From positions 1 through 42,016 of IMG/VR virus record IMGVR_UViG_3300022690_000657: DNA of 42,016 bases; one strand, 5' to 3'. The DNA comes from a virus. How positions within the stretch are numbered: position 1 is the stretch's first letter; each line of letters begins with the position of its first letter. Below the pieces are notes generated by a model. That model did not search any database, was not told where the DNA came from, and saw only the letters and a program-made list of their open reading frames with translations. The translations under genes and the position numbers were made by a program. Positions 1,242 through 42,016 of the stretch are shown here, one piece after another.

Positions 1242-1919
1242 TTATGCCGCCATATCAAACGCTACTTCATAACATTCTTCTAACTTCTTATCTCGAATAT
1301 CAATGTAATGCAGTGACATTTCTTCATCATCGTGACCAAGTAGCCTAGCTATGATGCTCAATGGTACGCCTGCCTCTGCTGCGTTTGTTGCTAATGATTT
1401 TCGGCCACTGTGAGAGCTGCAATTATGTAAGCCGCATCGTTTATAAATTTTTGTTAATAAGTCCTGTAGCGCGTCACACGACTTGTAAATATTAATCGAC
1501 CCATCAACCATAGTTCTCTTTTTATCGCTCAGTGAGTACGGTCTACCCCTGTTATTATAGAGTAAAGGGCTGTCGGCCATTAAACCTTGATACCGATCAT
1601 CATTTAGAGATAAGCCCCACTTGCGCTTTATGCGATAATCAATCACTGCTTGGATAGCTTCACGAGCTTTTTTATTCCACAACCACATTGTTCGCGGCTT
1701 TAACATCTTGCAAATTTTTGCAGGTAAAAACACCTCTGTTCTAATCTTGCCAGATGGATATAAAAGCGTTTTAACATCAATTCGAGCAACTTCTGATATT
1801 CTCATACCTAAATGAGTTAAAACAAAGGCAGCTAGCTTAGTTTCGGGATCAGGCATCAAACCGATTTTACCTATGGTTTTTCTGATCTGAGTTTTAGTTA
1901 ATGCTGCTGCTTTGCTCAT
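1242..1919 (-). CDS. int: Tyrosine recombinase / integrase, catalytic domain only (225 aa)
   Basis: Catalytic signature in the right order: GMRISE (Arg), HSGRKS (His-x-x-Arg), LLGHDD (His), SLHYIDI (Tyr). There is no room for an N-terminal arm- or core-binding domain. Confidence 0.85.
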   Translation of the reverse strand: MSKAAALTKTQIRKTIGKIGLMPDPETKLAAFVLTHLGMRISEVARIDVKTLLYPSGKIRTEVFLPAKICKMLKPRTMWLWNKKAREAIQAVIDYRIKRKWGLSLNDDRYQGLMADSPLLYNNRGRPYSLSDKKRTMVDGSINIYKSCDALQDLLTKIYKRCGLHNCSSHSGRKSLATNAAEAGVPLSIIARLLGHDDEEMSLHYIDIRDKKLEECYEVAFDMAA

Positions 1920-4957: not shown

Positions 4958-5758
4958 TTAAAACTGATTTCTATTTTCAAACTCTTCAGAACTTACGCTC
5001 TTTATAAAGTGCTTCCTTGCATTCTCCATTTTTCCACGCTCTTCAGTTGTGAATATCCCGCCTTTAGTTGGCGCCCTCCATAACAAGTCGGTCTCCACTT
5101 TAGGAATATCTTGCCAATATCCACCAGCCAAATCATATTCTTCATTAGCTAAAGCCTCTTTGATTCCTGATATTTCATCAAATCTATCTCTTATAAGTCT
5201 ATTAAAATCAAGCAAGTCTCTAATATTAATTTCGCTAGCCTTCATTCCGTCATCATCATGATCGGCAGTAACTATCCCTAAAGCGCCTATAAGGGTATAT
5301 CGCTGCAAATAACTATTAGATGACCCGATTGCCTGTATTGCATTTTTAGATCCGCTGGCATCCATAGGGGCGCTCATACTGGTTGATTCTGAATGACCAT
5401 TCTCATGCGTGACTATGCATTTCACCGTCATTTCACTGTTTTTAACTTCTTGCTCATATCGAAAGGTTAACCCGCACTCATGTAAAGGCTTTTTAATGAC
5501 GGCGTGAATACTTGGTAGTGTTGCGTATTTACAGTTATGTCCGGACTTCTGCTTTAACACTGGTGGACAAATACTTTGAAACCTACCCATTGAGTCAACA
5601 AACATCTTCTTAGCTTCCTTGGACTCCCATCGCTCTTGTAAATCCATTAGCTTACTAAGTTTATCAACGTCTGCATTGCTAGTTACAGCCAACTCCATAA
5701 GGCTTGCTAGTTGCTGCCCTTGATTAATCGCAACTTCCTTTTTCATTAAATCACTCAT
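4958..5758 (-). CDS. erf: ERF-family single-strand annealing recombinase
   Basis: KYATLPSIHAVIKKPLHECGL and NAIQAIGSSNSYLQRYTLIGALGIVTADHDDDG match the ERF core as seen in P22 Erf (GATSSYARKYCLNGLFGIDD). Confidence 0.8.
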   Translation of the reverse strand: MSDLMKKEVAINQGQQLASLMELAVTSNADVDKLSKLMDLQERWESKEAKKMFVDSMGRFQSICPPVLKQKSGHNCKYATLPSIHAVIKKPLHECGLTFRYEQEVKNSEMTVKCIVTHENGHSESTSMSAPMDASGSKNAIQAIGSSNSYLQRYTLIGALGIVTADHDDDGMKASEINIRDLLDFNRLIRDRFDEISGIKEALANEEYDLAGGYWQDIPKVETDLLWRAPTKGGIFTTEERGKMENARKHFIKSVSSEEFENRNQF

Positions 5759-6797: not shown

Positions 6798-6836
6798 TTC
6801 TATTTCCTCTTAGTTAAGTTTGTTTCGATGAAATTA

Positions 6837-6865
6837 AGATTACTCTTGATGATTCCGATTGTCAA
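6837..6865 (-). promoter_or_regulatory. Leftward early promoter TTGACA-17-TAATCT
   Basis: Read on the minus strand in the 136-bp divergent gap. Confidence 0.6.
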
Positions 6866-6873
6866 CAAATAAT

Positions 6874-6902
6874 TTGACTCAAGCAAGATTATTCGTTACT
6901 AT
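6874..6902 (+). promoter_or_regulatory. Rightward early promoter TTGACT-17-TACTAT
   Basis: Read on the plus strand. Its -35 box lies back to back with the leftward -35 box (GTCAA-8 nt-TTGAC). Confidence 0.6.
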
Positions 6903-6933
6903 ACAATTACACATTTAATAAAAGGTAAGCAAA

Positions 6934-7134
6934 ATGCATTACGGGAAAGCTATTAGAAAGAAGCTTATAGATGCTGATAAAGACCAAACATGGTTAGCTG
7001 ATGGGTTGGGAGTAACAAAGCAAGCAGTTAGCTTTATGTGCAGTCAGAGGCACTTAAATACATCTAAGCTACATAAGGTTTGTGATTTATTAGGCGTTAC
7101 AGTTATGTCGATGATGATCGAGGGCAATGTATGA
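6934..7134 (+). CDS. Cro / XRE-type HTH regulator (66 aa)
   Basis: QTWLADGLGVTKQAVSFM is a canonical HTH_XRE segment. It is the first gene of the rightward operon. Confidence 0.8.
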   Translation: MHYGKAIRKKLIDADKDQTWLADGLGVTKQAVSFMCSQRHLNTSKLHKVCDLLGVTVMSMMIEGNV

Positions 7135-7971: not shown

Positions 7972-8235
7972 ATGGGTGAAGTGGTTGATGGGAATTTCGC
8001 AAACGAAAAGTCAGGGTATGTGACAAAAGGCGATAGTATAGAAGGTGTTTATAATGGTAGTTTATGCGCCGTTTTAGTTAACGGCAGTAAAGATAAATGT
8101 ACTGTTGGGTATACCGATGACGAGCGTGTGATTGGCATTGAGATGACGGTGAAAGAAATGAACGAGTTTTGTCTCATGTGGCTTTGTATTTTCGATGAAT
8201 CGGTAATAGTTAAGGAGAAAGGCGATGATAATTAA
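7972..8235 (+). CDS. Hypothetical protein (87 aa)
   Basis: ORF 7960..8235. The ATG at 7972 lies 11 nt after GAGGGGGGG. Confidence 0.55.
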   Translation: MGEVVDGNFANEKSGYVTKGDSIEGVYNGSLCAVLVNGSKDKCTVGYTDDERVIGIEMTVKEMNEFCLMWLCIFDESVIVKEKGDDN

Positions 8236-8449
8236 AGTGAGCTCTAAAGATAGGTTAAAAAAGATGCAACCTATCCTTGAAAAGCAAAAGAAAGGCGAGT
8301 CCAGATTCGCATATTTTCCTGTAAAGCTAAAGGATAATAGTGTGATTTGGTTAGAATCTTATTTCGTTAACTACAATATTATCACCTTTGAGGATGGAAC
8401 AATGATTCCAGGTGAAAAAGAATTTGCAAATTATAAGGAGGTGATATAA
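8225..8449 (+). CDS. Hypothetical protein (74 aa)
   Basis: ORF with an AGGAGAAAGG Shine-Dalgarno. Confidence 0.6.
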   Translation: MIIKVSSKDRLKKMQPILEKQKKGESRFAYFPVKLKDNSVIWLESYFVNYNIITFEDGTMIPGEKEFANYKEVI

Positions 8450-8502
8450 GATCTAAGGGCTGATCGTACAGCGCCAAGTAATCCAATACACAAAAAGAGT
8501 CT

Positions 8503-8590
8503 TTAAAGCAAATTTCAGAGCCTTAGTTGTAACAAGTGTATTGGTAACTAAACGCTATACGAACTGAGGTTTGCTTTAAGGGCTTTTTTT
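8503..8590 (+). terminator. Long hairpin (16 bp including two G-U pairs, structured 45-nt loop) followed by GGC-T7
   Basis: 8503-8518 pairs with 8564-8579. The T run is 8584-8590. The wobble pairs form only on the plus-strand transcript. Confidence 0.45.
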
Positions 8591-8664
8591 ATGTCTGAGT
8601 CTTGTTAAATGTTGGAAATGTGGTCAAGTAAAGTGTGTAGCCAGAGTAGCTACCACAGCCAGCC

Positions 8665-8967
8665 AACTATCAGACACCCTTCAAAGCAATAAGTGTTTAT
8701 ATGTAGTGAGGTTTGGATCGGGGGTGGTATCCCATAATATCGACCATTATCCCCGTGTTCGGCAACAGTCGATTGTGGGGAATATAAATTCAAACCTCCT
8801 TTCATATAAACACTTTCTCAGATAGTTAGTATAAAAAGTGAGCCTAGCCCTTTGGTGGGTGCCTGGTTAAAGTTTGGCAATGCTCAGTATTAAAAACACT
8901 GACAAAGGCGGCTAAAAACAAAGCAGTATCGCGAACAAACATTGCTTAGGCTCACTTTTTATACTAA
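8665..8967 (+). ncRNA. Candidate large structured RNA (two adjacent long helical domains); family unknown
   Basis: Helices 8665-8671/8821-8827, 8691-8703/8803-8815 (13/13), 8708-8715/8791-8798 (8/8), 8826-8845/8948-8967 (20/20), plus nested sub-helices. There is no ORF of 60 aa or more on either strand from 8450 to 9245. Confidence 0.4.
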
Positions 8968-9257
8968 TTAAAGTTCTTAGAAAGATTAATTCTTATTCAG
9001 CACAAATGAATCGAATGTAGCAGCATAATAAATGCATCAACTAGATTGTTGATTATAAATCTAACTCATGGATACTTGGCTTGTCATTGAGAGTTAGTCT
9101 CTATAAAAGGACTCATTAAGAATAATCAACTTAATGTTTTAAAAGGTGTGCTGAGATGCTATACACCAAGAAAGTATCCGCGGTAGAAATACTGTTAGCT
9201 TGATAGCTTTTAAAGGAGAAGAAGCCACAAATTTAACTTAAATAAATGGAGAATAGA

Positions 9258-9512
9258 ATGAAAGTTGGAGATAGAATAAGAGTCATTCAATATATGATGG
9301 GTTGTAAAGTTGGAACTGAAGATTTTACAGTTGAAGAATTTAGATATTGCCTTGGCATTTTTGAGGATGAGGATCGAAGAAAAGCCCAAATATTTACTCC
9401 TTTATGTGAAATTTATGAGCCTGGCCCAAGCTCTAAGCGAGATTATATTTCTAATTTTGGTAAATATAATACTGAATATGTTCAAGCTTGGTGCGACATA
9501 CCTAAAAAATAA
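9258..9512 (+). CDS. Hypothetical protein (84 aa; alternative start 9246)
   Basis: ORF 9246..9512. The ATG at 9258 follows GGAGAA. Confidence 0.55.
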   Translation: MKVGDRIRVIQYMMGCKVGTEDFTVEEFRYCLGIFEDEDRRKAQIFTPLCEIYEPGPSSKRDYISNFGKYNTEYVQAWCDIPKK

Positions 9513-9545: not shown

Positions 9546-10040
9546 GTGATTACACAAAAATTAGTGAAAGAGTTATTTCATTACGTTCCGGAAACTGGAG
9601 AACTAATTAGGCTAAAGAATGCTGGAAGCGCTAAAACGGGTGATTTAGCTGGATGCTTATTTAATACAGGTTATATTTTGACCTCGATAAAGGGTAAGTT
9701 TTATCAGAATCACAGGATAATATTCTTATATTTTCACGGTTACTTGCCAGAACAAGTTGATCACATAAACGGCATTAGATCTGATAACAAGATAGAAAAC
9801 CTTAGGACTGCAACTCATAAAGAAAATATGAGAAACCACGGCAAACATAAGAATAATACTAGCGGCGTAAAAGGCGTACATTGGAATAAAAGAGAGAAAA
9901 GATGGCAAGCTCAGATTAAAGCAGATGGAAAATTAATATATCTAGGATTATTTATCACTATAGGTGACGCGGAAAAAATAGTAAGAAAAAAAAGAGTAGA
10001 ACTTCATGGTGAGTTTGCTAATCACGGAGATTCTGGGTAA
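9546..10040 (+). CDS. Free-standing HNH homing endonuclease with a C-terminal AP2 DNA-binding domain
   Basis: HRIIFLYFHGYLPEQVDHINGIRSDNKIENLRTATHKENMRN (HNH_3), then SGVKGVHWNKREKRWQAQI...LGLF (AP2). GTG start after AGGA. Confidence 0.8.
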   Translation: MITQKLVKELFHYVPETGELIRLKNAGSAKTGDLAGCLFNTGYILTSIKGKFYQNHRIIFLYFHGYLPEQVDHINGIRSDNKIENLRTATHKENMRNHGKHKNNTSGVKGVHWNKREKRWQAQIKADGKLIYLGLFITIGDAEKIVRKKRVELHGEFANHGDSG

Positions 10041-10402: not shown

Positions 10403-10452
10403 TCGTGGTGGAAGTATTAGAGACAAAATGAATTATTAACCTGGAGAGAGAA

Positions 10453-10908: not shown

Positions 10909-11295
10909 ATGAAAGTTCAACCAGATACAAGAACGTCAACCGATTTTTTATTAATACAAAACAACACTTTCGCAAAGATTAAAAAGCCAAAACCTAGACC
11001 TTGCGTTTATGTAATTGATTTTGGCTGCGTCCGAAAAGTCGGCATATCCAATAACTTTGAAAATAGATTGTTAGCCCTAACTCAGCAATTTAAAATAAAG
11101 CCTTCTCGCTACCTTTCACTAGAAACAACTAAAAATAGCCGAATTGAGCAATTTATAAAAGTAACTCTAGAGGATTTTGTAGTTCCTTTCAGGGGGATAT
11201 ATACCGAAACATTCTCAACTAGCTTTCTTGATTGTACTAAAATGGTAATAAAGCTGATTCGTGAGCAAGCAATATTGGAGGGTATGAAAAAATGA
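10909..11295 (+). CDS. T5orf172 / GIY-YIG-like domain protein
   Basis: CVYVIDFGCVRKVGISNNFENRLLAL ... IEQFIKVTLEDF ... TETF fits the T5orf172 (MUG113) pattern. Confidence 0.5.
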   Translation: MKVQPDTRTSTDFLLIQNNTFAKIKKPKPRPCVYVIDFGCVRKVGISNNFENRLLALTQQFKIKPSRYLSLETTKNSRIEQFIKVTLEDFVVPFRGIYTETFSTSFLDCTKMVIKLIREQAILEGMKK

Positions 11296-11891
11296 ACTTA
11301 TATGAAAAACTAGGCGTAGCAATAACCGCCACCAAGAAAGAAATAAAACAGGCTTTTAAAAAACTCTCAACTAAACATCATCCCGACAAAGGTGGCGACA
11401 CTGAAGAGTTCAAGGTCATTCAAAAAGCTTATATGGTTTTGAGTAATGATGAAAAGCGTGATCACTATGATAAAACCGGTGAGTCTGAAAGTAATAATCG
11501 AAATCCTGACAATGCATTGCTTCAAGTATTTGCGGCGATTATCGATAATAGAAACTTTCAAGGCAATATTATTGAAAATATCGCTGGAAATCTAACGATG
11601 CAAATAAACCAGATCAGAAAGGAAAACACCCAACTTAATAAAAGAGAGAGAGACCTTAAAACGCAAAAGGACCGAATTTCTGCTAAAAATGAAAATTTCT
11701 TTGAGATCATCTTAGGTGAAAAAATTAAAGGTTTTGTTAATAAACAAGAATCAAACCTAAAAGCTATTGAGGGTATTGAGTGTTTAATTAAATTGATCAA
11801 TGATTATTCTGATGAAAGACCAGAAGAAGTTATAATATCAAGCTTTGATCGCCAAACCTTTCACAGCGGTACAACAGGGTTTCAGCTATGA
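11292..11891 (+). CDS. J-domain (DnaJ-like) protein with a coiled-coil C-terminal half
   Basis: NLYEKLGVAITATKKEIKQAFKKLSTKHHPDKGGDTEEFKVIQKAYMVLSNDEKRDHYD contains the HPD motif. It has an ATGA overlap with the upstream gene. Confidence 0.85.
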   Translation: MNLYEKLGVAITATKKEIKQAFKKLSTKHHPDKGGDTEEFKVIQKAYMVLSNDEKRDHYDKTGESESNNRNPDNALLQVFAAIIDNRNFQGNIIENIAGNLTMQINQIRKENTQLNKRERDLKTQKDRISAKNENFFEIILGEKIKGFVNKQESNLKAIEGIECLIKLINDYSDERPEEVIISSFDRQTFHSGTTGFQL

Positions 11892-41754: not shown

Positions 41755-41967
41755 TTATTTAATAACGTATTCATCTTGGTTTTCAAGAACTTTATCTCTG
41801 ATCGCTTTTGCTGCGTGAGCATTCAAAGGACTAAAAAACATTGGTTTATCTGCCGCAAGTTTTGATACCAATAATAACTCAAATTTCAATTGCTTAATTT
41901 CACTTAACAATTTATTTTTAATTAATGAGCCGCCTCTCTGAGTTGCTTCTACCGCTTCATCAGTCAT
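41755..41967 (-). CDS. Hypothetical early protein (70 aa); its 5' part is duplicated at 1-95 by the terminal repeat
   Basis: ORF 41755..42015. The ATG at 41967 follows GGAAAGTTTT. In the circular map it lies just downstream of the stop of gene 112..396. Confidence 0.55.
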   Translation of the reverse strand: MTDEAVEATQRGGSLIKNKLLSEIKQLKFELLLVSKLAADKPMFFSPLNAHAAKAIRDKVLENQDEYVIK

Positions 41968-42016
41968 AAAACTTTCCGTCCTTCTAGTTAGTAATTTCAG
42001 ATAGGAGATCATCAAA
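41873..42016. repeat. Terminal direct repeat, copy 2
   Basis: Identical to 1-144. Confidence 0.95.

What the first reader, a model, noticed from the sequence alone, without database searches (positions are those of the whole stretch)
8665..8967. ORF-free island folds into two adjacent long helical domains: candidate undescribed large structured RNA
This genome is mostly packed with overlapping genes. Yet about 800 bp (8450-9245) carry no ORF of 60 aa or more on either strand. Domain 1: 8665-8671/8821-8827 (7 bp), 8691-8703/8803-8815 (13/13 perfect) and 8708-8715/8791-8798 (8/8). These enclose a core (8716-8790) that can form gatcg/cgatt (one G-T wobble), gggg/cccc, tggt/acca, a tgtt-cggc-aaca tetraloop hairpin and a possible tccca/tgggg pseudoknot. 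Domain 2: 8826-8845/8948-8967 (20/20 perfect) plus agc/gct. It encloses about 100 nt with cctttg/caaagg, tgcc/ggca and cagt/actg sub-helices and A-rich loops. The nested multi-helix architecture and the wobble pairs that only work on the plus strand point to an RNA co-transcribed with the rightward operon. I recognise no Rfam family (no tRNA T-loop, no group I core order, no riboswitch signature). A free-standing HNH-AP2 nuclease lies about 600 bp downstream.
Basis: partly seen in the sequence, partly recalled or inferred. Interest (0 to 1): 0.8.

Follow-up and report, generated by a model that had tools for sequence, protein, structure and literature searches.

The report
Phage array of stem-enclosed small-RNA cassettes
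The two long hairpins are real and conserved, but they are separate units of a modular non-coding RNA island, previously undescribed as far as Rfam and the literature searched show, in which the same stems hold tRNAs in related phages.

Summary
8450-9257 has no ORF above 51 aa. The three longest inverted repeats of the whole 42-kb genome lie there side by side: H0 8492-8518/8564-8590, H1 8691-8718/8788-8815 and H2 8823-8846/8947-8970. Each folds far better than shuffles (z about -6). No Rfam family or tRNA matches.

The reading as one large RNA is only partly right. About ten related uncultured-phage contigs carry a homologous island. It always starts with a sigma70-like promoter and a hairpin RNA of about 130-150 nt that ends in a U-tract (H0). 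Then come 0-4 tandem hairpin cassettes in a fixed order (E2, H1, G, H2), present or absent independently.

The basal helices are conserved and covary. In H1, 10 of 23 pairs change on both sides and 98.9% of cells stay paired. H2 keeps an invariant G.U. The apical cargo is replaceable: two canonical tRNA-Arg, several tRNA-like RNAs, or unrelated folds as in this window.

Most likely this is a rightward-transcribed array of small RNAs, each held in a leader-trailer helix that insulates, stabilises or directs its processing. Transcription, processing and cargo function are inferred. A DNA-level palindromic-cassette reading is not excluded.

The parts
8424..8452 (+). Sigma70-like promoter of the island: -35 TTGCAA (8424-8429), 17-nt spacer, -10 TAAGAT (8447-8452, overlapping the stop codon of the 74-aa ORF)
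   Evidence: Read. A -35/-10 pair with a 16-18 nt spacer sits at the same place, 6-8 nt before the conserved 5' hairpin, in every relative. Examples are TAGACA-N16-TATAAT (L008, L009, L023, L025, L034, L039), TTGCAA-N17-TAAAAT (L044), TTGATA-N16/17-TAAAAT (L042, L049) and TTGAAC-N16-TAAAAT (L053). The consensus scan did not list it because TAAGAT has only 3 of 6 matches to TATAAT, below the scan's minimum of 4. Transcription is not shown.
8458..8590 (+). H0: predicted sRNA of about 133 nt. It has a 5' hairpin GCUG/CAGC (8459-8472), a long imperfect helix (8492-8518/8564-8590) and a T7 tail (8584-8590) that resembles an intrinsic terminator
   Evidence: z -6.07. The + strand gives -38.3 vs -21.0 kcal/mol for the - strand, with 7 G.U pairs. 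It is 88.8% identical over 134 nt to L049, although the flanking genes share no detectable DNA similarity. Conserved G.U pairs and compensatory changes appear across relatives.
8676..8690 (+). Conserved junction ACCCTTCAAAGCAAT(A) that precedes the first cassette
   Evidence: The same motif precedes the first cassette in L023, L044 and L049.
8691..8815 (+). H1 cassette. Basal helix 8691-8703/8803-8815, internal loop 8704-8707/8799-8802, second-tier helix 8708-8718/8788-8798, unique 69-nt apical cargo 8719-8787
   Evidence: z -6.18. The arms are homologous to L009 4100-4195, L049 2837-2953, L044 5152-5263 and the L023 H1/G cassettes. Over 4 sequences, 98.9% of cells are paired, 10 of 23 pairs change on both sides, and 0 of 500 shuffles reach this. 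The cargo has no homologue and no tRNA or Rfam match.
8816..8825 (+). Linker TCTCAGATAG, the window's version of the conserved CCTCAG(T)A(A)ATAG that precedes the next cassette
   Evidence: Present after H1, or after H0, in L008, L009, L023, L025, L042, L044 and L049.
8823..8970 (+). H2 cassette. A 24-bp helix 8823-8846/8947-8970 (one G.U) encloses a unique 100-nt multi-hairpin cargo 8847-8946
   Evidence: z -6.64. The basal arms AGTTAGYATA/TATRCTAATT are shared with L049, L008, L025 and L023. 94.4% of cells are paired, 6 of 18 pairs change on both sides, and the G.U at alignment columns 6/53 is invariant in all four.
8952..9010 (+). Conserved 3' flank of the array (includes ATTCTTATTCAGCACAAATGAA, 8989-9010)
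   Evidence: 82% identical to L049. The 22-nt motif recovered four related IMG/VR contigs.
9044..9225 (+). Conserved non-coding tail upstream of the 84-aa gene. Function unknown; possibly the promoter/leader of the downstream genes
   Evidence: 82% identical to L005 6870-6923. Alignable by eye to L039 4760-4930.
9546..10040 (+). Free-standing HNH(-AP2) nuclease gene downstream (context, not shown to be functionally linked)
   Evidence: phrog_99 E 1e-72; Pfam HNH_3. In most relatives a T5orf172/MUG113 gene occupies the position directly after the island.

Best explanation
8665-8967 covers two neighbouring units, H1 (8691-8815) and H2 (8823-8970), of a tandem array of stem-enclosed small-RNA cassettes. 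The array belongs to a conserved accessory non-coding island (about 8424-9010, with a conserved tail to 9257) in the early rightward operon of a complete P22-like temperate phage genome.

The island opens with its own sigma70-type promoter and a hairpin RNA of about 133 nt that ends in a U-tract (H0). Behind it lie hairpin cassettes. Each has a sequence-conserved, covarying basal helix, formed by a leader paired with a trailer. That helix carries an exchangeable apical cargo RNA.

In related phages the same basal helices carry canonical tRNAs or tRNA-like RNAs. In this window they carry two unrelated folds of 69 and 100 nt.

Proposed mechanism:
1. The array is transcribed rightward, by read-through of the H0 terminator from the island promoter and/or by the antiterminated early transcript.
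2. Each leader-trailer helix makes its cargo fold independently.
3. The helix also serves as a double-stranded processing or stabilising stem, as RNase III stems do for rRNAs, so that discrete stable small RNAs are released.
4. The conserved arms also give homology for swapping cargo between co-infecting phages.

Shown: the helices, their conservation and covariation, the modularity, the tRNA cargo in relatives, and the conserved promoter and terminator motifs.
Inferred: transcription, processing, and any function of the window's two cargo RNAs.
For: (1) The helices are statistically exceptional.

(2) Homologous islands occupy the same genomic slot in about ten uncultured-phage contigs: L008/L007, L009, L023, L025, L034, L039, L042, L044, L049/L050, L051/L052 and L053. 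They were found through three independent routes:
- a downstream DUF6378 protein;
- DNA motifs;
- flanking proteins.

(3) Between the window and L049, the only DNA similarity within +/-3.5 kb of the island is the island's own pieces plus one 34-nt intergenic stretch (10416-10449). H0 is 88.8% identical over 134 nt. The non-coding DNA is therefore conserved better than the flanking genes.

(4) Covariation:
- H1 arms: 98.9% of cells paired, 10 of 23 pairs changed on both sides, 0 of 500 shuffles as good, and slid controls fall to 38-64% paired.
- H2 base: 94.4% paired, 6 of 18 pairs changed on both sides, one G.U invariant.
- H0: 6 of 18 pairs changed on both sides among distant members, and several invariant G.U among close ones.

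(5) Strand: the + strand folds better than the - strand in 13 of 14 cassettes and in all four H0 RNAs tested. All tRNAs lie on the + strand.

(6) Cargo:
- Two tRNA-Arg (59.6 and 52.2 bits) lie between the arms TAGATGATAT/ATATCATTTA in L009.
- A type-II tRNA (39.9 bits, above the gathering score) lies inside the H1 basal helix of L023. The trailer arm starts right after the encoded CCA.
- Weaker tRNA-like cargos occur in L049 and L051.

(7) Modularity: the cassettes keep the order E2-H1-G-H2 but are present or absent independently. Each is preceded by (A)ATAG.

(8) A promoter-like -35/-10 pair and a U-tract terminator are conserved at the same positions in the relatives whose H0 is fully held (see parts).
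Against: - There are no expression data, so no transcript or processing site is shown.
- The H0 U-tract lies between the island promoter and the cassettes, and I found no convincing internal promoter. Cassette transcription therefore needs read-through.
- The basal helices of H1 and H2 are almost perfect Watson-Crick palindromes and are conserved in sequence, not only in pairing. In outer helices alone, G.U pairs number 28 on the + strand and 14 on the - strand. A DNA-level role fits this equally well.
- Compensatory changes would also arise in DNA inverted repeats that must stay complementary.
- The covariation tables rest on 3-4 sequences, on arm-only constructs with an artificial GAAA loop. 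The L023_G row in the H1 alignment is a G cassette whose outer arm is not homologous to H1; about four of the ten double changes are that substitution. Excluding it, roughly five or six compensated pairs remain, in the second-tier helix.
- The cargo RNAs of the window have no homologue, so their internal structure and function are untested.
- The family is small and comes from a few, possibly related, metagenomes.
Confidence: 0.55

Rival explanations
1. DNA-level palindromic cassettes. The hairpins would be terminal inverted repeats, or hairpin-forming recombination or nuclease sites, of small mobile or exchangeable DNA modules. These could be MITE-like or homing-type, moved or converted with help from the adjacent T5orf172/HNH nuclease. 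The RNA structure would be incidental.
For: - Cassettes are gained and lost with sharp boundaries. Each starts TAG... and ends ...CTA and follows (A)ATAG.
- The basal arms are near-perfect and conserved in sequence.
- L053 has 2.5 direct repeats AATAGTTwTCACC where cassettes would sit.
- A T5orf172/MUG113 (GIY-YIG-like) or HNH gene follows nearly every island.
- Several assemblies break inside the island, as population-level cassette polymorphism would cause.
Against: - Each arm type is single-copy in the 42-kb genome and always appears in the same order and place, unlike transposing MITEs.
- No clean target-site duplication: filled and empty sites differ by 2-3 nt (read).
- There is no transposase or recombinase next to the island.
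- The invariant G.U in H2, the conserved U.G and mismatches in H1, and the strongly asymmetric H0 point to a single-stranded plus-strand structure.
- Functional tRNAs with encoded CCA sit exactly at the top of the stems.
- This rival is partly compatible with the main explanation. DNA-level exchange and RNA-level function may both hold.
Confidence: 0.18
2. One large multi-domain structured RNA. H1 and H2, perhaps with H0, would be domains of a single functional RNA of 300-500 nt, comparable to GOLLD or ROOL, with variable peripheral elements.
For: - The whole of 8650-8980 folds with z -6.75.
- The island is conserved as a unit with fixed element order.
- From my own knowledge: large prophage RNAs such as GOLLD and ROOL lie next to tRNAs, and GOLLD can hold tRNAs in variable regions.
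Against: - H1 and H2 occur without each other, and other cassettes can be inserted between them.
- Nothing conserved links the domains. The 7-bp closing helix is not conserved and clashes with H2.
- The cores, which should be the functional heart of a large RNA, are unrelated between genomes, while the stems are what is conserved.
- No GOLLD, ROOL or other Rfam hit even at E <= 10.
Confidence: 0.07
3. Cis-acting mRNA elements. The hairpins would be RNase III or stability/insulator sites that set the differential decay or translation of the early polycistronic mRNA, as in T7 early mRNA. They would yield no independent small-RNA product.
For: - The position is intergenic within the early rightward operon.
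- Stems of 20-24 bp are long enough for RNase III (established knowledge).
- No promoter was found for H1 or H2 themselves (and my reading).
Against: - This does not explain why the same stems enclose tRNAs and tRNA-like RNAs in relatives.
- It does not explain why 70-180 nt of structured, hypervariable cargo is kept in each stem.
- It does not explain why the island has its own promoter-plus-terminator sRNA unit.
- The related phage L003 lacks the island altogether and has replication genes in that slot.
Confidence: 0.1
4. Replication origin or single-strand priming signals. The island would be the phage's ori, with hairpins that form in unwound plus-strand DNA or an RNA primer made from the island promoter.
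For: - The genome is complete and circular (144-nt terminal overlap), yet no replication initiator, helicase or primase is recognisable.
- The island lies in the slot where the relative L003 carries DUF1376 plus a 152-aa gene.
- A promoter followed by a structured untranslated RNA recalls ColE1 RNA II (a resemblance from memory).
Against: - No DnaA boxes in the island; genome-wide there are fewer than chance.
- No iterons or tandem repeats.
- tRNA genes inside the same stems are hard to reconcile with an origin.
- Cassette number varies from 0 to 4 between relatives.
- There is no remnant of replication genes in the island.
Confidence: 0.05

Closest known systems
Leader-trailer (processing) helices of bacterial rRNA operons, cleaved by RNase III (e.g. 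PMC10250234)
   Same: Sequences on the 5' and 3' sides of a functional RNA pair into a long helix, so the product sits on top of a double-stranded stalk within a polycistronic precursor. tRNAs are co-transcribed in the same unit.
   Different: Here the enclosed RNAs are 70-180 nt (tRNAs, tRNA-like and unknown folds), several stalks follow each other in tandem, and the element is in a phage. The stalk sequences, not the cargo, are the conserved part. RNase III cleavage is not shown.
Phage tRNA gene clusters with accompanying stable small RNAs and free-standing homing nucleases (T4 tRNA region with species 1/2 RNAs (rnaC, rnaD) and SegB; T5 tRNA region) - from my own knowledge
   Same: A non-coding region of a phage genome that encodes tRNAs together with other structured small RNAs of unknown function. 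It is variable between relatives and lies next to free-standing HNH/GIY-YIG-type nuclease genes.
   Different: This window's island has no tRNA at all. The enclosing inverted-repeat stems and the promoter-proximal H0 RNA are not features I know from those clusters. The phage is a small temperate P22-like phage.
GOLLD and ROOL large non-coding RNAs of prophages (Rfam)
   Same: Large structured non-coding regions in phages or prophages, next to tRNAs. From my own knowledge, GOLLD sometimes has tRNAs nested in variable parts.
   Different: No match to either covariance model, even at E <= 10. There is no conserved core. The units are independent hairpins that come and go.
Correia repeat-enclosed elements (CREE) and other MITEs (PMC2649163)
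   Same: Units of 100-150 bp bounded by inverted repeats. Their transcripts form hairpins that RNase III can cut. They can carry promoter-like sequences.
   Different: CREE are multicopy, dispersed, and flanked by TA duplications. Here each arm type is single-copy, in fixed order at one locus. The cargo includes tRNAs, and no clean duplication was found.
RNase III processing hairpins between phage T7 early genes - from my own knowledge
   Same: Intergenic hairpins with internal loops in an early phage transcript. H1's 13 bp + 4x4 loop + 8-11 bp layout resembles them.
   Different: T7 sites are about 50-60 nt with small loops and no cargo. Here 69-180 nt of structured cargo sits in the apex, and homologous stems hold tRNAs.

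Membership tests
Any Rfam 15 family | cmscan score at or above the family's gathering score | tested here: not met
   0 hits in the whole window at gathering thresholds. In 8400-9300 only 4 hits at E 1.3-7.6, all far below gathering.
tRNA (window cargo) | Cloverleaf detected by ARAGORN or Rfam RF00005 | tested here: not met
   ARAGORN finds 0 genes in the window. No RF00005 hit at E <= 10 in 8400-9300. For contrast, the cargos of relatives do match: L009 59.6 and 52.2 bits, L023 39.9 bits.
GOLLD / ROOL large phage RNAs | Match to the family covariance model (conserved core) | tested here: not met
   No hit at E <= 10 or at gathering thresholds.
Leader-trailer processing helix (rRNA-type) | The 5' and 3' flanks of a functional RNA pair into a helix that is kept by compensatory change | tested here: met
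   tRNAs sit inside the helices in L009 and L023. The H1 and H2 arms covary.
Leader-trailer processing helix (rRNA-type) | The helix is cleaved by RNase III to release the enclosed RNA | not testable with these tools
   Needs RNA end-mapping in wild-type and rnc hosts.
Intrinsic terminator (H0 3' end) | Stem-loop immediately followed by a U-tract | tested here: met
   T7 at 8584-8590 directly after the helix. A T6-T9 tract is conserved at that place in the relatives whose H0 is fully held. The consensus scan did not list it because its loop limit is 3-8 nt. Termination itself was not tested.
Promoter-driven sRNA gene (H0) | Sigma70 -35/-10 pair at a conserved distance upstream of the RNA | tested here: inconclusive
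   Motifs are conserved in position in all islands by reading. However, the window's -10 (TAAGAT) is weak, the scan tool did not call it, and no transcript is shown.
MITE / Correia-like element | Terminal inverted repeats | tested here: met
   Arms of 24-28 nt.
MITE / Correia-like element | Target-site duplication at filled versus empty sites | tested here: inconclusive
   TA/TAG is present at both ends, but filled and empty sites differ by 2-3 nt (compare).
MITE / Correia-like element | Multiple dispersed copies | tested here: not met
   The arm motifs occur only in the island within the 42-kb genome. IMG/VR scans with the H1 and H2 arms found one relative and one chance hit. The host chromosome is unknown and was not tested.
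Iteron / DnaA-box replication origin | Clustered DnaA boxes or iterons | tested here: not met
   No box in 8450-9257, and fewer genome-wide than in shuffles. No tandem repeats. Only short two-copy direct repeats.
Retron msr-msd / other RT-linked ncRNA | Adjacent reverse transcriptase gene | tested here: not met
   No RT among the ORFs scanned around the island or in the rest of the genome.
Group I / II intron or HEARO-type nuclease-associated RNA | Match to the intron or HEARO models; a split host gene or an IscB-type partner | tested here: not met
   No Rfam hit. The flanking ORFs are intact. The neighbour is a 164-aa free-standing HNH.

The most novel reading that the evidence does not exclude
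The island is a plug-and-play RNA cassette system, a sort of RNA-gene integron of phages. Conserved leader-trailer stems would act both as universal processing adaptors and as homology arms or nuclease-defined junctions ((A)ATAG). This would let phages swap hypervariable small RNAs rapidly, helped by the adjacent T5orf172/HNH nuclease. The swapped RNAs would be tRNAs, expanded tRNA-like RNAs and other folds. They could serve as replacements, decoys or inhibitors in the arms race with tRNA-targeting or RNA-sensing host defences. H0 would be the constitutively expressed gatekeeper sRNA/terminator that limits array expression to lytic growth.
Probability: 0.15. Interest if true: 0.85.

Novelty: new variant of a known kind. 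Interest (0 to 1): 0.62.

Why it matters
If the reading is right, a clade of temperate phages packages accessory small RNAs in a standard scaffold: a conserved helix that can hold a tRNA, a tRNA-like RNA or something else.

- It adds an RNA architecture, with at least five helix types, that is absent from Rfam.
- It offers a natural example of insulated, modular RNA expression cassettes.
- It gives a handle for finding phage small RNAs that evolve too fast to be found by their own sequence: search for the scaffold, then read the cargo.
- The oddly expanded tRNA-like cargos and the unrelated cargos, such as the two in this window, are candidates for anti-defence or host-takeover RNAs.
- The tight link with T5orf172/HNH genes suggests a testable route for exchanging such RNAs.

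Separately, this complete 42-kb genome has no recognisable replication gene, which raises the question of how it replicates.

Tried and rejected
Searches that found nothing relevant:
- Rfam at gathering and at E <= 10 on the window: nothing.
- ARAGORN on the window: nothing.
- DNA similarity of the island to 50,697 phage records and 72,556 plasmids, and of window 1-25000 to the phage records: no match.
- The islands of L009 and L023 matched isolated phages only through their tRNAs.
- An exact H2-arm 18-mer in IMG/VR gave one chance hit inside a gene.
- The H1 arm pattern in IMG/VR found only L009's contig.
- The 22-nt 3'-flank motif in metagenome contigs and in 185,579 species genomes gave only chance hits inside coding regions. 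The family was not found there, and no host was identified.

Flanking proteins that were no use as anchors:
- The 74-aa protein is an orphan, with only itself among 5.8 billion clusters.
- The 84-aa protein family is large, but in other phages it is not preceded by an island. This gave no closer relative, and so no homologue of the window's cargo RNAs.
- ERF and the 88-aa form of the downstream ORF found no relatives in IMG/VR.

Ideas rejected:
- Decayed replication genes: tblastn of L003's DUF1376 and 152-aa proteins finds nothing in the island.
- Classical origin: no DnaA boxes, iterons or tandem repeats.
- Antisense regulator of the phage's own genes: the cargo, the H0 apex and the spacers have only chance-level matches of 12 nt or less elsewhere in the genome.
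- The shared motif TATAnnnAGTGAG as a protein-binding iteron: 5 matches genome-wide against 2.95 expected, with 16 of 100 shuffles reaching that. Not significant on its own; it reflects homology between stem arms.

Not found: an internal promoter for H1 or H2 (and my reading).

Poor result: MAFFT alignment of full-length H0 from distant members was unreliable. I used arm-only constructs and close relatives instead.
Full report
**1. What is in the sequence**

The window is a complete circular phage genome. The contig ends overlap by 144 nt, which gives about 41.9 kb of unique sequence. The layout is lambdoid/P22-like:
- integrase at 1242-1919 and ERF at 4958-5758, both on the minus strand;
- a divergent cI-like/cro-like pair around 6800-6934;
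- a rightward early operon running to NinB and NinG;
- packaging and structural genes on the minus strand.
The portal protein is 50% identical to those of Vibrio phage 1.275.O and Pseudomonas phage AH02.

Between the 74-aa ORF (8225-8449) and the next credible gene there is no ORF longer than 51 aa. That next gene most likely starts at ATG 9258 behind a GGAG; this 84-aa product is the one on record.

A genome-wide scan shows that the three longest inverted repeats with arms up to 400 nt apart all lie in this island, side by side:
- H0: 8488-8518/8564-8594, 31 nt at 81%;
- H1: 8691-8718/8788-8815, 28 nt at 86%;
- H2: 8823-8846/8947-8970, 24 nt at 96%.

As RNA, each folds about six standard deviations better than dinucleotide shuffles: z -6.07, -6.18 and -6.64, and -6.75 for 8650-8980. 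Rfam gives nothing at gathering thresholds and only noise at E <= 10. ARAGORN finds no tRNA.

**2. Relatives exist and show what the thing is**

DNA searches of isolated phages and plasmids found nothing. The immediate flanking proteins were no use as anchors: the 74-aa protein is an orphan, and the 84-aa family is widespread but not linked to an island elsewhere.

Three other routes recovered homologous ORF-free islands in the same slot of the early operon:
- a DUF6378 protein 1.2 kb downstream;
- two conserved DNA motifs;
- two flanking protein families of the relatives.
The contigs are L008/L007, L009, L023, L025, L034, L039, L042, L044, L049/L050, L051/L052 and L053. They are uncultured-phage contigs from IMG/VR, JGI, ENA and Logan.

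Scans of metagenome and species-genome collections with the 3'-flank motif gave only chance hits in coding DNA. The family is therefore rare in what I could search.

Between the window and its closest relative L049, the only DNA similarity within +/-3.5 kb of the island is the island's own pieces plus one 34-nt intergenic stretch at 10416-10449. H0 is 88.8% identical over 134 nt, and the start of H1 and the 3' flank also match, while the flanking genes do not. The non-coding DNA is the best-conserved part of the neighbourhood.

**3. Anatomy of the island family** (read; landmark table)

(a) A sigma70-like promoter sits at a fixed position. In the window it is TTGCAA-17-TAAGAT (8424-8452). In relatives it is TAGACA-16-TATAAT, TTGCAA-17-TAAAAT, TTGATA-16/17-TAAAAT or TTGAAC-16-TAAAAT.

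(b) H0 follows. It has a short 5' hairpin (GCUG..CAGC, which covaries), then a long imperfect helix of 25-30 bp rich in G.U, and it ends in a run of 6-9 U. It looks like an sRNA of about 130-150 nt with an intrinsic terminator.
- It is much more stable on the plus strand (-38.3 vs -21.0 kcal/mol in the window).
- It keeps several invariant G.U pairs among close relatives.
- It shows compensatory changes among distant ones (6 of 18 pairs).
- L039 and L053 have a second H0 type.

(c) Then come 0 to 4 tandem hairpin cassettes in a fixed order, which I call E2, H1, G and H2; L051 has a further type. Each is preceded by (A)ATAG and begins at the TAG or AG of that motif (CAG in L008's H2); most end ...CTA.

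(d) A conserved 3' flank follows (window 8952-9010), and then a conserved non-coding tail.

The window has H0-H1-H2. Other arrangements are:
- L049: H0-H1-G-H2
- L023: H0-E2-H1-G-H2
- L009: H0-E2-H1-G
- L008: H0-G-H2
- L025: H0-H2
- L044: H0-E2-H1-G
- L039 and L053: H0 only

H1 and H2 are therefore separable units, not two domains of one RNA.

**4. Conserved stems, exchangeable cargo**

The basal helices are conserved in sequence and, where they differ, in pairing.

For the H1 arms (window, L009, L049 and the L023 G cassette, which shares the second-tier helix):
- 98.9% of cells form standard pairs;
- 10 of 23 pairs show changes on both sides;
- none of 500 column shuffles reaches any of the five measures;
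- sliding the partner by 1-3 columns drops pairing to 38-64%.
About four of those ten double changes are the substitution of the non-homologous G outer arm in the L023_G row. Excluding that row, roughly five or six compensated pairs remain, in the second-tier helix.

A U.C and a U.U mismatch (A-U in L023_G), and a U.G pair in three of the four sequences, are kept in the same places.

For the H2 base (window, L049, L008, L023):
- 94.4% of cells are paired;
- 6 of 18 pairs change on both sides;
- one G.U is invariant in all four.
Between the window and L049 the inner part of the helix also covaries around a shared AAGUGA (read).

By contrast, the apical parts are unrelated between genomes. In L009 the G arms TAGATGATAT/ATATCATTTA enclose two canonical tRNA-Arg (UCU and ACG, 59.6 and 52.2 bits). 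In L023 the H1 basal helix encloses a type-II tRNA (39.9 bits, above Rfam's gathering score). Its encoded CCA abuts the trailer arm. The same tRNA-like gene sits in a G cassette in L049 (17.9 bits).

L051 has a T-arm/acceptor-type tRNA-like cargo scoring 22.8 bits. By reading, L009's E2, L044's E2 and L051's H1 cargos also have T-arm and acceptor-like features. Several of these have oversized anticodon loops, variable arms or D-region insertions, and they escape ARAGORN.

Other cargos are non-tRNA folds with no detectable homologue: the window's H1 (69 nt) and H2 (100 nt), L049's H1 and H2, and the H2 cargo shared by L008, L023 and L025.

**5. Strand and molecule**

All tRNAs are on the plus strand of the island. 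The plus strand folds better than the minus strand in 13 of 14 cassettes and in all four H0 RNAs tested. Over whole cassettes there are 96 G.U pairs against two A.C 1x1 mismatches.

However, in the outer helices alone the asymmetry is modest: 28 G.U on the plus strand and 14 on the minus strand. For the window's H1 and H2 the plus strand is favoured by only about 5 kcal/mol. What carries the strand assignment is H0, the invariant G.U in H2 and the orientation of the tRNA cargos.

**6. Most likely mechanism**

The simplest account of the following five facts is a rightward-transcribed array of small RNAs, each nested in a leader-trailer helix:
- a conserved promoter;
- a terminator-ended hairpin RNA;
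- plus-strand structure;
- stems that are conserved and covary while the cargo is swapped;
- bona fide tRNAs sitting exactly on top of such stems.

By analogy with rRNA operons (leader-trailer helices cut by RNase III, e.g. PMC10250234) and with T7 early-mRNA processing sites (my own knowledge), the helix would let each cargo fold on its own. It would also provide a double-stranded processing or protective stalk. The window's 20-24-bp H2 helix and H1's 13 bp + 4x4 loop + 8-11 bp layout have suitable dimensions for this.

The H0 terminator lies between the island promoter and the cassettes, and I found no convincing internal promoter (and reading). The cassettes would therefore be expressed by terminator read-through, plausibly by antiterminated early transcription during lytic growth, while H0 alone could be made from its own promoter.

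All of this paragraph is inference. No transcript, processing site or function has been shown.

**7. Rivals**

(i) DNA-level palindromic cassettes. The sharp gain and loss of units at (A)ATAG, the near-perfect sequence-conserved arms, the AATAGTTwTCACC direct repeats in the cassette-less L053, the T5orf172/MUG113 or HNH gene next to almost every island and the assembly breaks inside the island all fit modules exchanged or cut as DNA.
Against this as the sole explanation:
- each arm type is single-copy, in fixed order at one locus;
- there is no clean target duplication and no transposase;
- G.U pairs and mismatches are conserved;
- the cargo includes tRNAs.
DNA-level exchange and RNA-level function may well coexist.

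(ii) A single large RNA. This is contradicted by the independent occurrence of the units and by the non-conservation of the cores.

(iii) Pure cis-acting mRNA processing or stability sites. This does not explain the tRNA cargo or the promoter-terminator unit.

(iv) Replication origin. The idea is tempting because the complete genome has no recognisable replication gene, and because the relative L003 has DUF1376 plus another gene in this slot. But there are no DnaA boxes, iterons or tandem repeats, no gene remnants, and the cassette number varies from 0 to 4.

**8. Comparison with the known, and novelty**

It works most like a phage tRNA/small-RNA gene cluster whose members sit in rRNA-style leader-trailer helices. 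It is not a member of any Rfam family, of GOLLD or ROOL, of the intron families, or of retron or HEARO-type RNAs. It fails the multicopy criterion for MITEs (see the membership table).

Three full-text literature searches turned up no description of stem-enclosed tRNA or sRNA cassettes in phages, though the library does not cover subscription journals.

I rate it a new variant of a known kind: phage accessory small-RNA/tRNA islands, with an undescribed scaffold architecture and an undescribed promoter-proximal hairpin RNA.

**9. Limits**

- The covariation tables rest on 3-4 sequences, on arm-only constructs joined by an artificial GAAA loop, so they say nothing about the cargo.
- The relatives come from a handful of metagenomes.
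- Compensatory change cannot by itself separate RNA helices from DNA inverted repeats that must stay complementary.
- The host is unknown.

Noticed in passing
window 1-42016 (ends 1-144 = 41873-42016): The contig is a complete circular genome of about 41.9 kb (144-nt terminal overlap). It has no recognisable replication initiator, helicase, primase or polymerase in any ORF scanned. The related phage L003 carries DUF1376 plus a 152-aa gene where this phage has small orphan ORFs, the island, an 84-aa ORF, HNH and a 120-aa ORF.
   Followed up: partly
window 8458-8590 (H0): A third hairpin, not mentioned in the finding. It appears to be a promoter-proximal, terminator-ended sRNA of about 133 nt that is conserved in every related island. 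Two types exist: type A as in the window, type B in L039 and L053. It is 88.8% identical to L049 although the flanking genes are dissimilar.
   Followed up: partly
window 8532 and 8918; L034 end; L042 end: Independent assemblies break inside the island. The Logan contigs of SRR7467839 stop at the H0 apex and restart in the H2 apex. One IMG/VR contig ends 57 nt into H0 and another ends inside a cassette. The cause could be hairpin-related coverage loss or cassette polymorphism within populations.
   Followed up: no
L053 3235-3290: An island with type-B H0 and no cassettes has 2.5 direct repeats of AATAGTT(A/T)TCACC directly after H0. These might be empty cassette junctions.
   Followed up: no
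window 9044-9225: The non-coding tail after the array is also conserved: 82% to L005 6870-6923, and alignable by eye to L039 4760-4930. It includes a hairpin GTTAGTCyC...GGACTCA and a conserved AGCTTGATAGCTTTTAAAGGAG block. It may be the promoter or leader of the downstream genes.
   Followed up: no
L009 4594-5187, L025 8465-9058, L044 5678-6031, L049-L053 3501-4094: A T5orf172/MUG113 (GIY-YIG-like) gene directly follows the island in most relatives. The window instead has an 84-aa ORF and the HNH-AP2 gene, plus a 128-aa ORF at 10909-11295 with only a weak endonuclease PHROG hit.
   Followed up: partly
L023 884-998 (-), L049 2975-3105, L051 3040-3300, L009 3897-4097: The tRNA-like cargos have unusual expansions: a 12-nt anticodon loop with a 38-nt variable arm, an insertion in the D region, or about 95 nt between the anticodon and T arms. 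ARAGORN misses them. They may be non-decoding tRNA mimics.
   Followed up: partly
L007/L036 and L008/L024 (IMGVR_UViG_3300032087_003094, 74.5 kb): This IMG/VR contig contains the island and its neighbours twice, about 35 kb apart. It looks like a head-to-tail dimer assembly of one genome.
   Followed up: no
window 1242-1919 (-): The integrase ORF is only 225 aa and matches only the catalytic Phage_integrase domain. It is short for a tyrosine integrase and may be truncated or have a mis-called start.
   Followed up: no
window 11292-11891 (+): A 199-aa protein with an N-terminal DnaJ (J) domain is encoded in the early operon, next to a Dam methylase. A phage-encoded J-protein is uncommon. It could relate to host-chaperone-dependent replication in a genome that lacks recognisable replication genes.
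   Followed up: no
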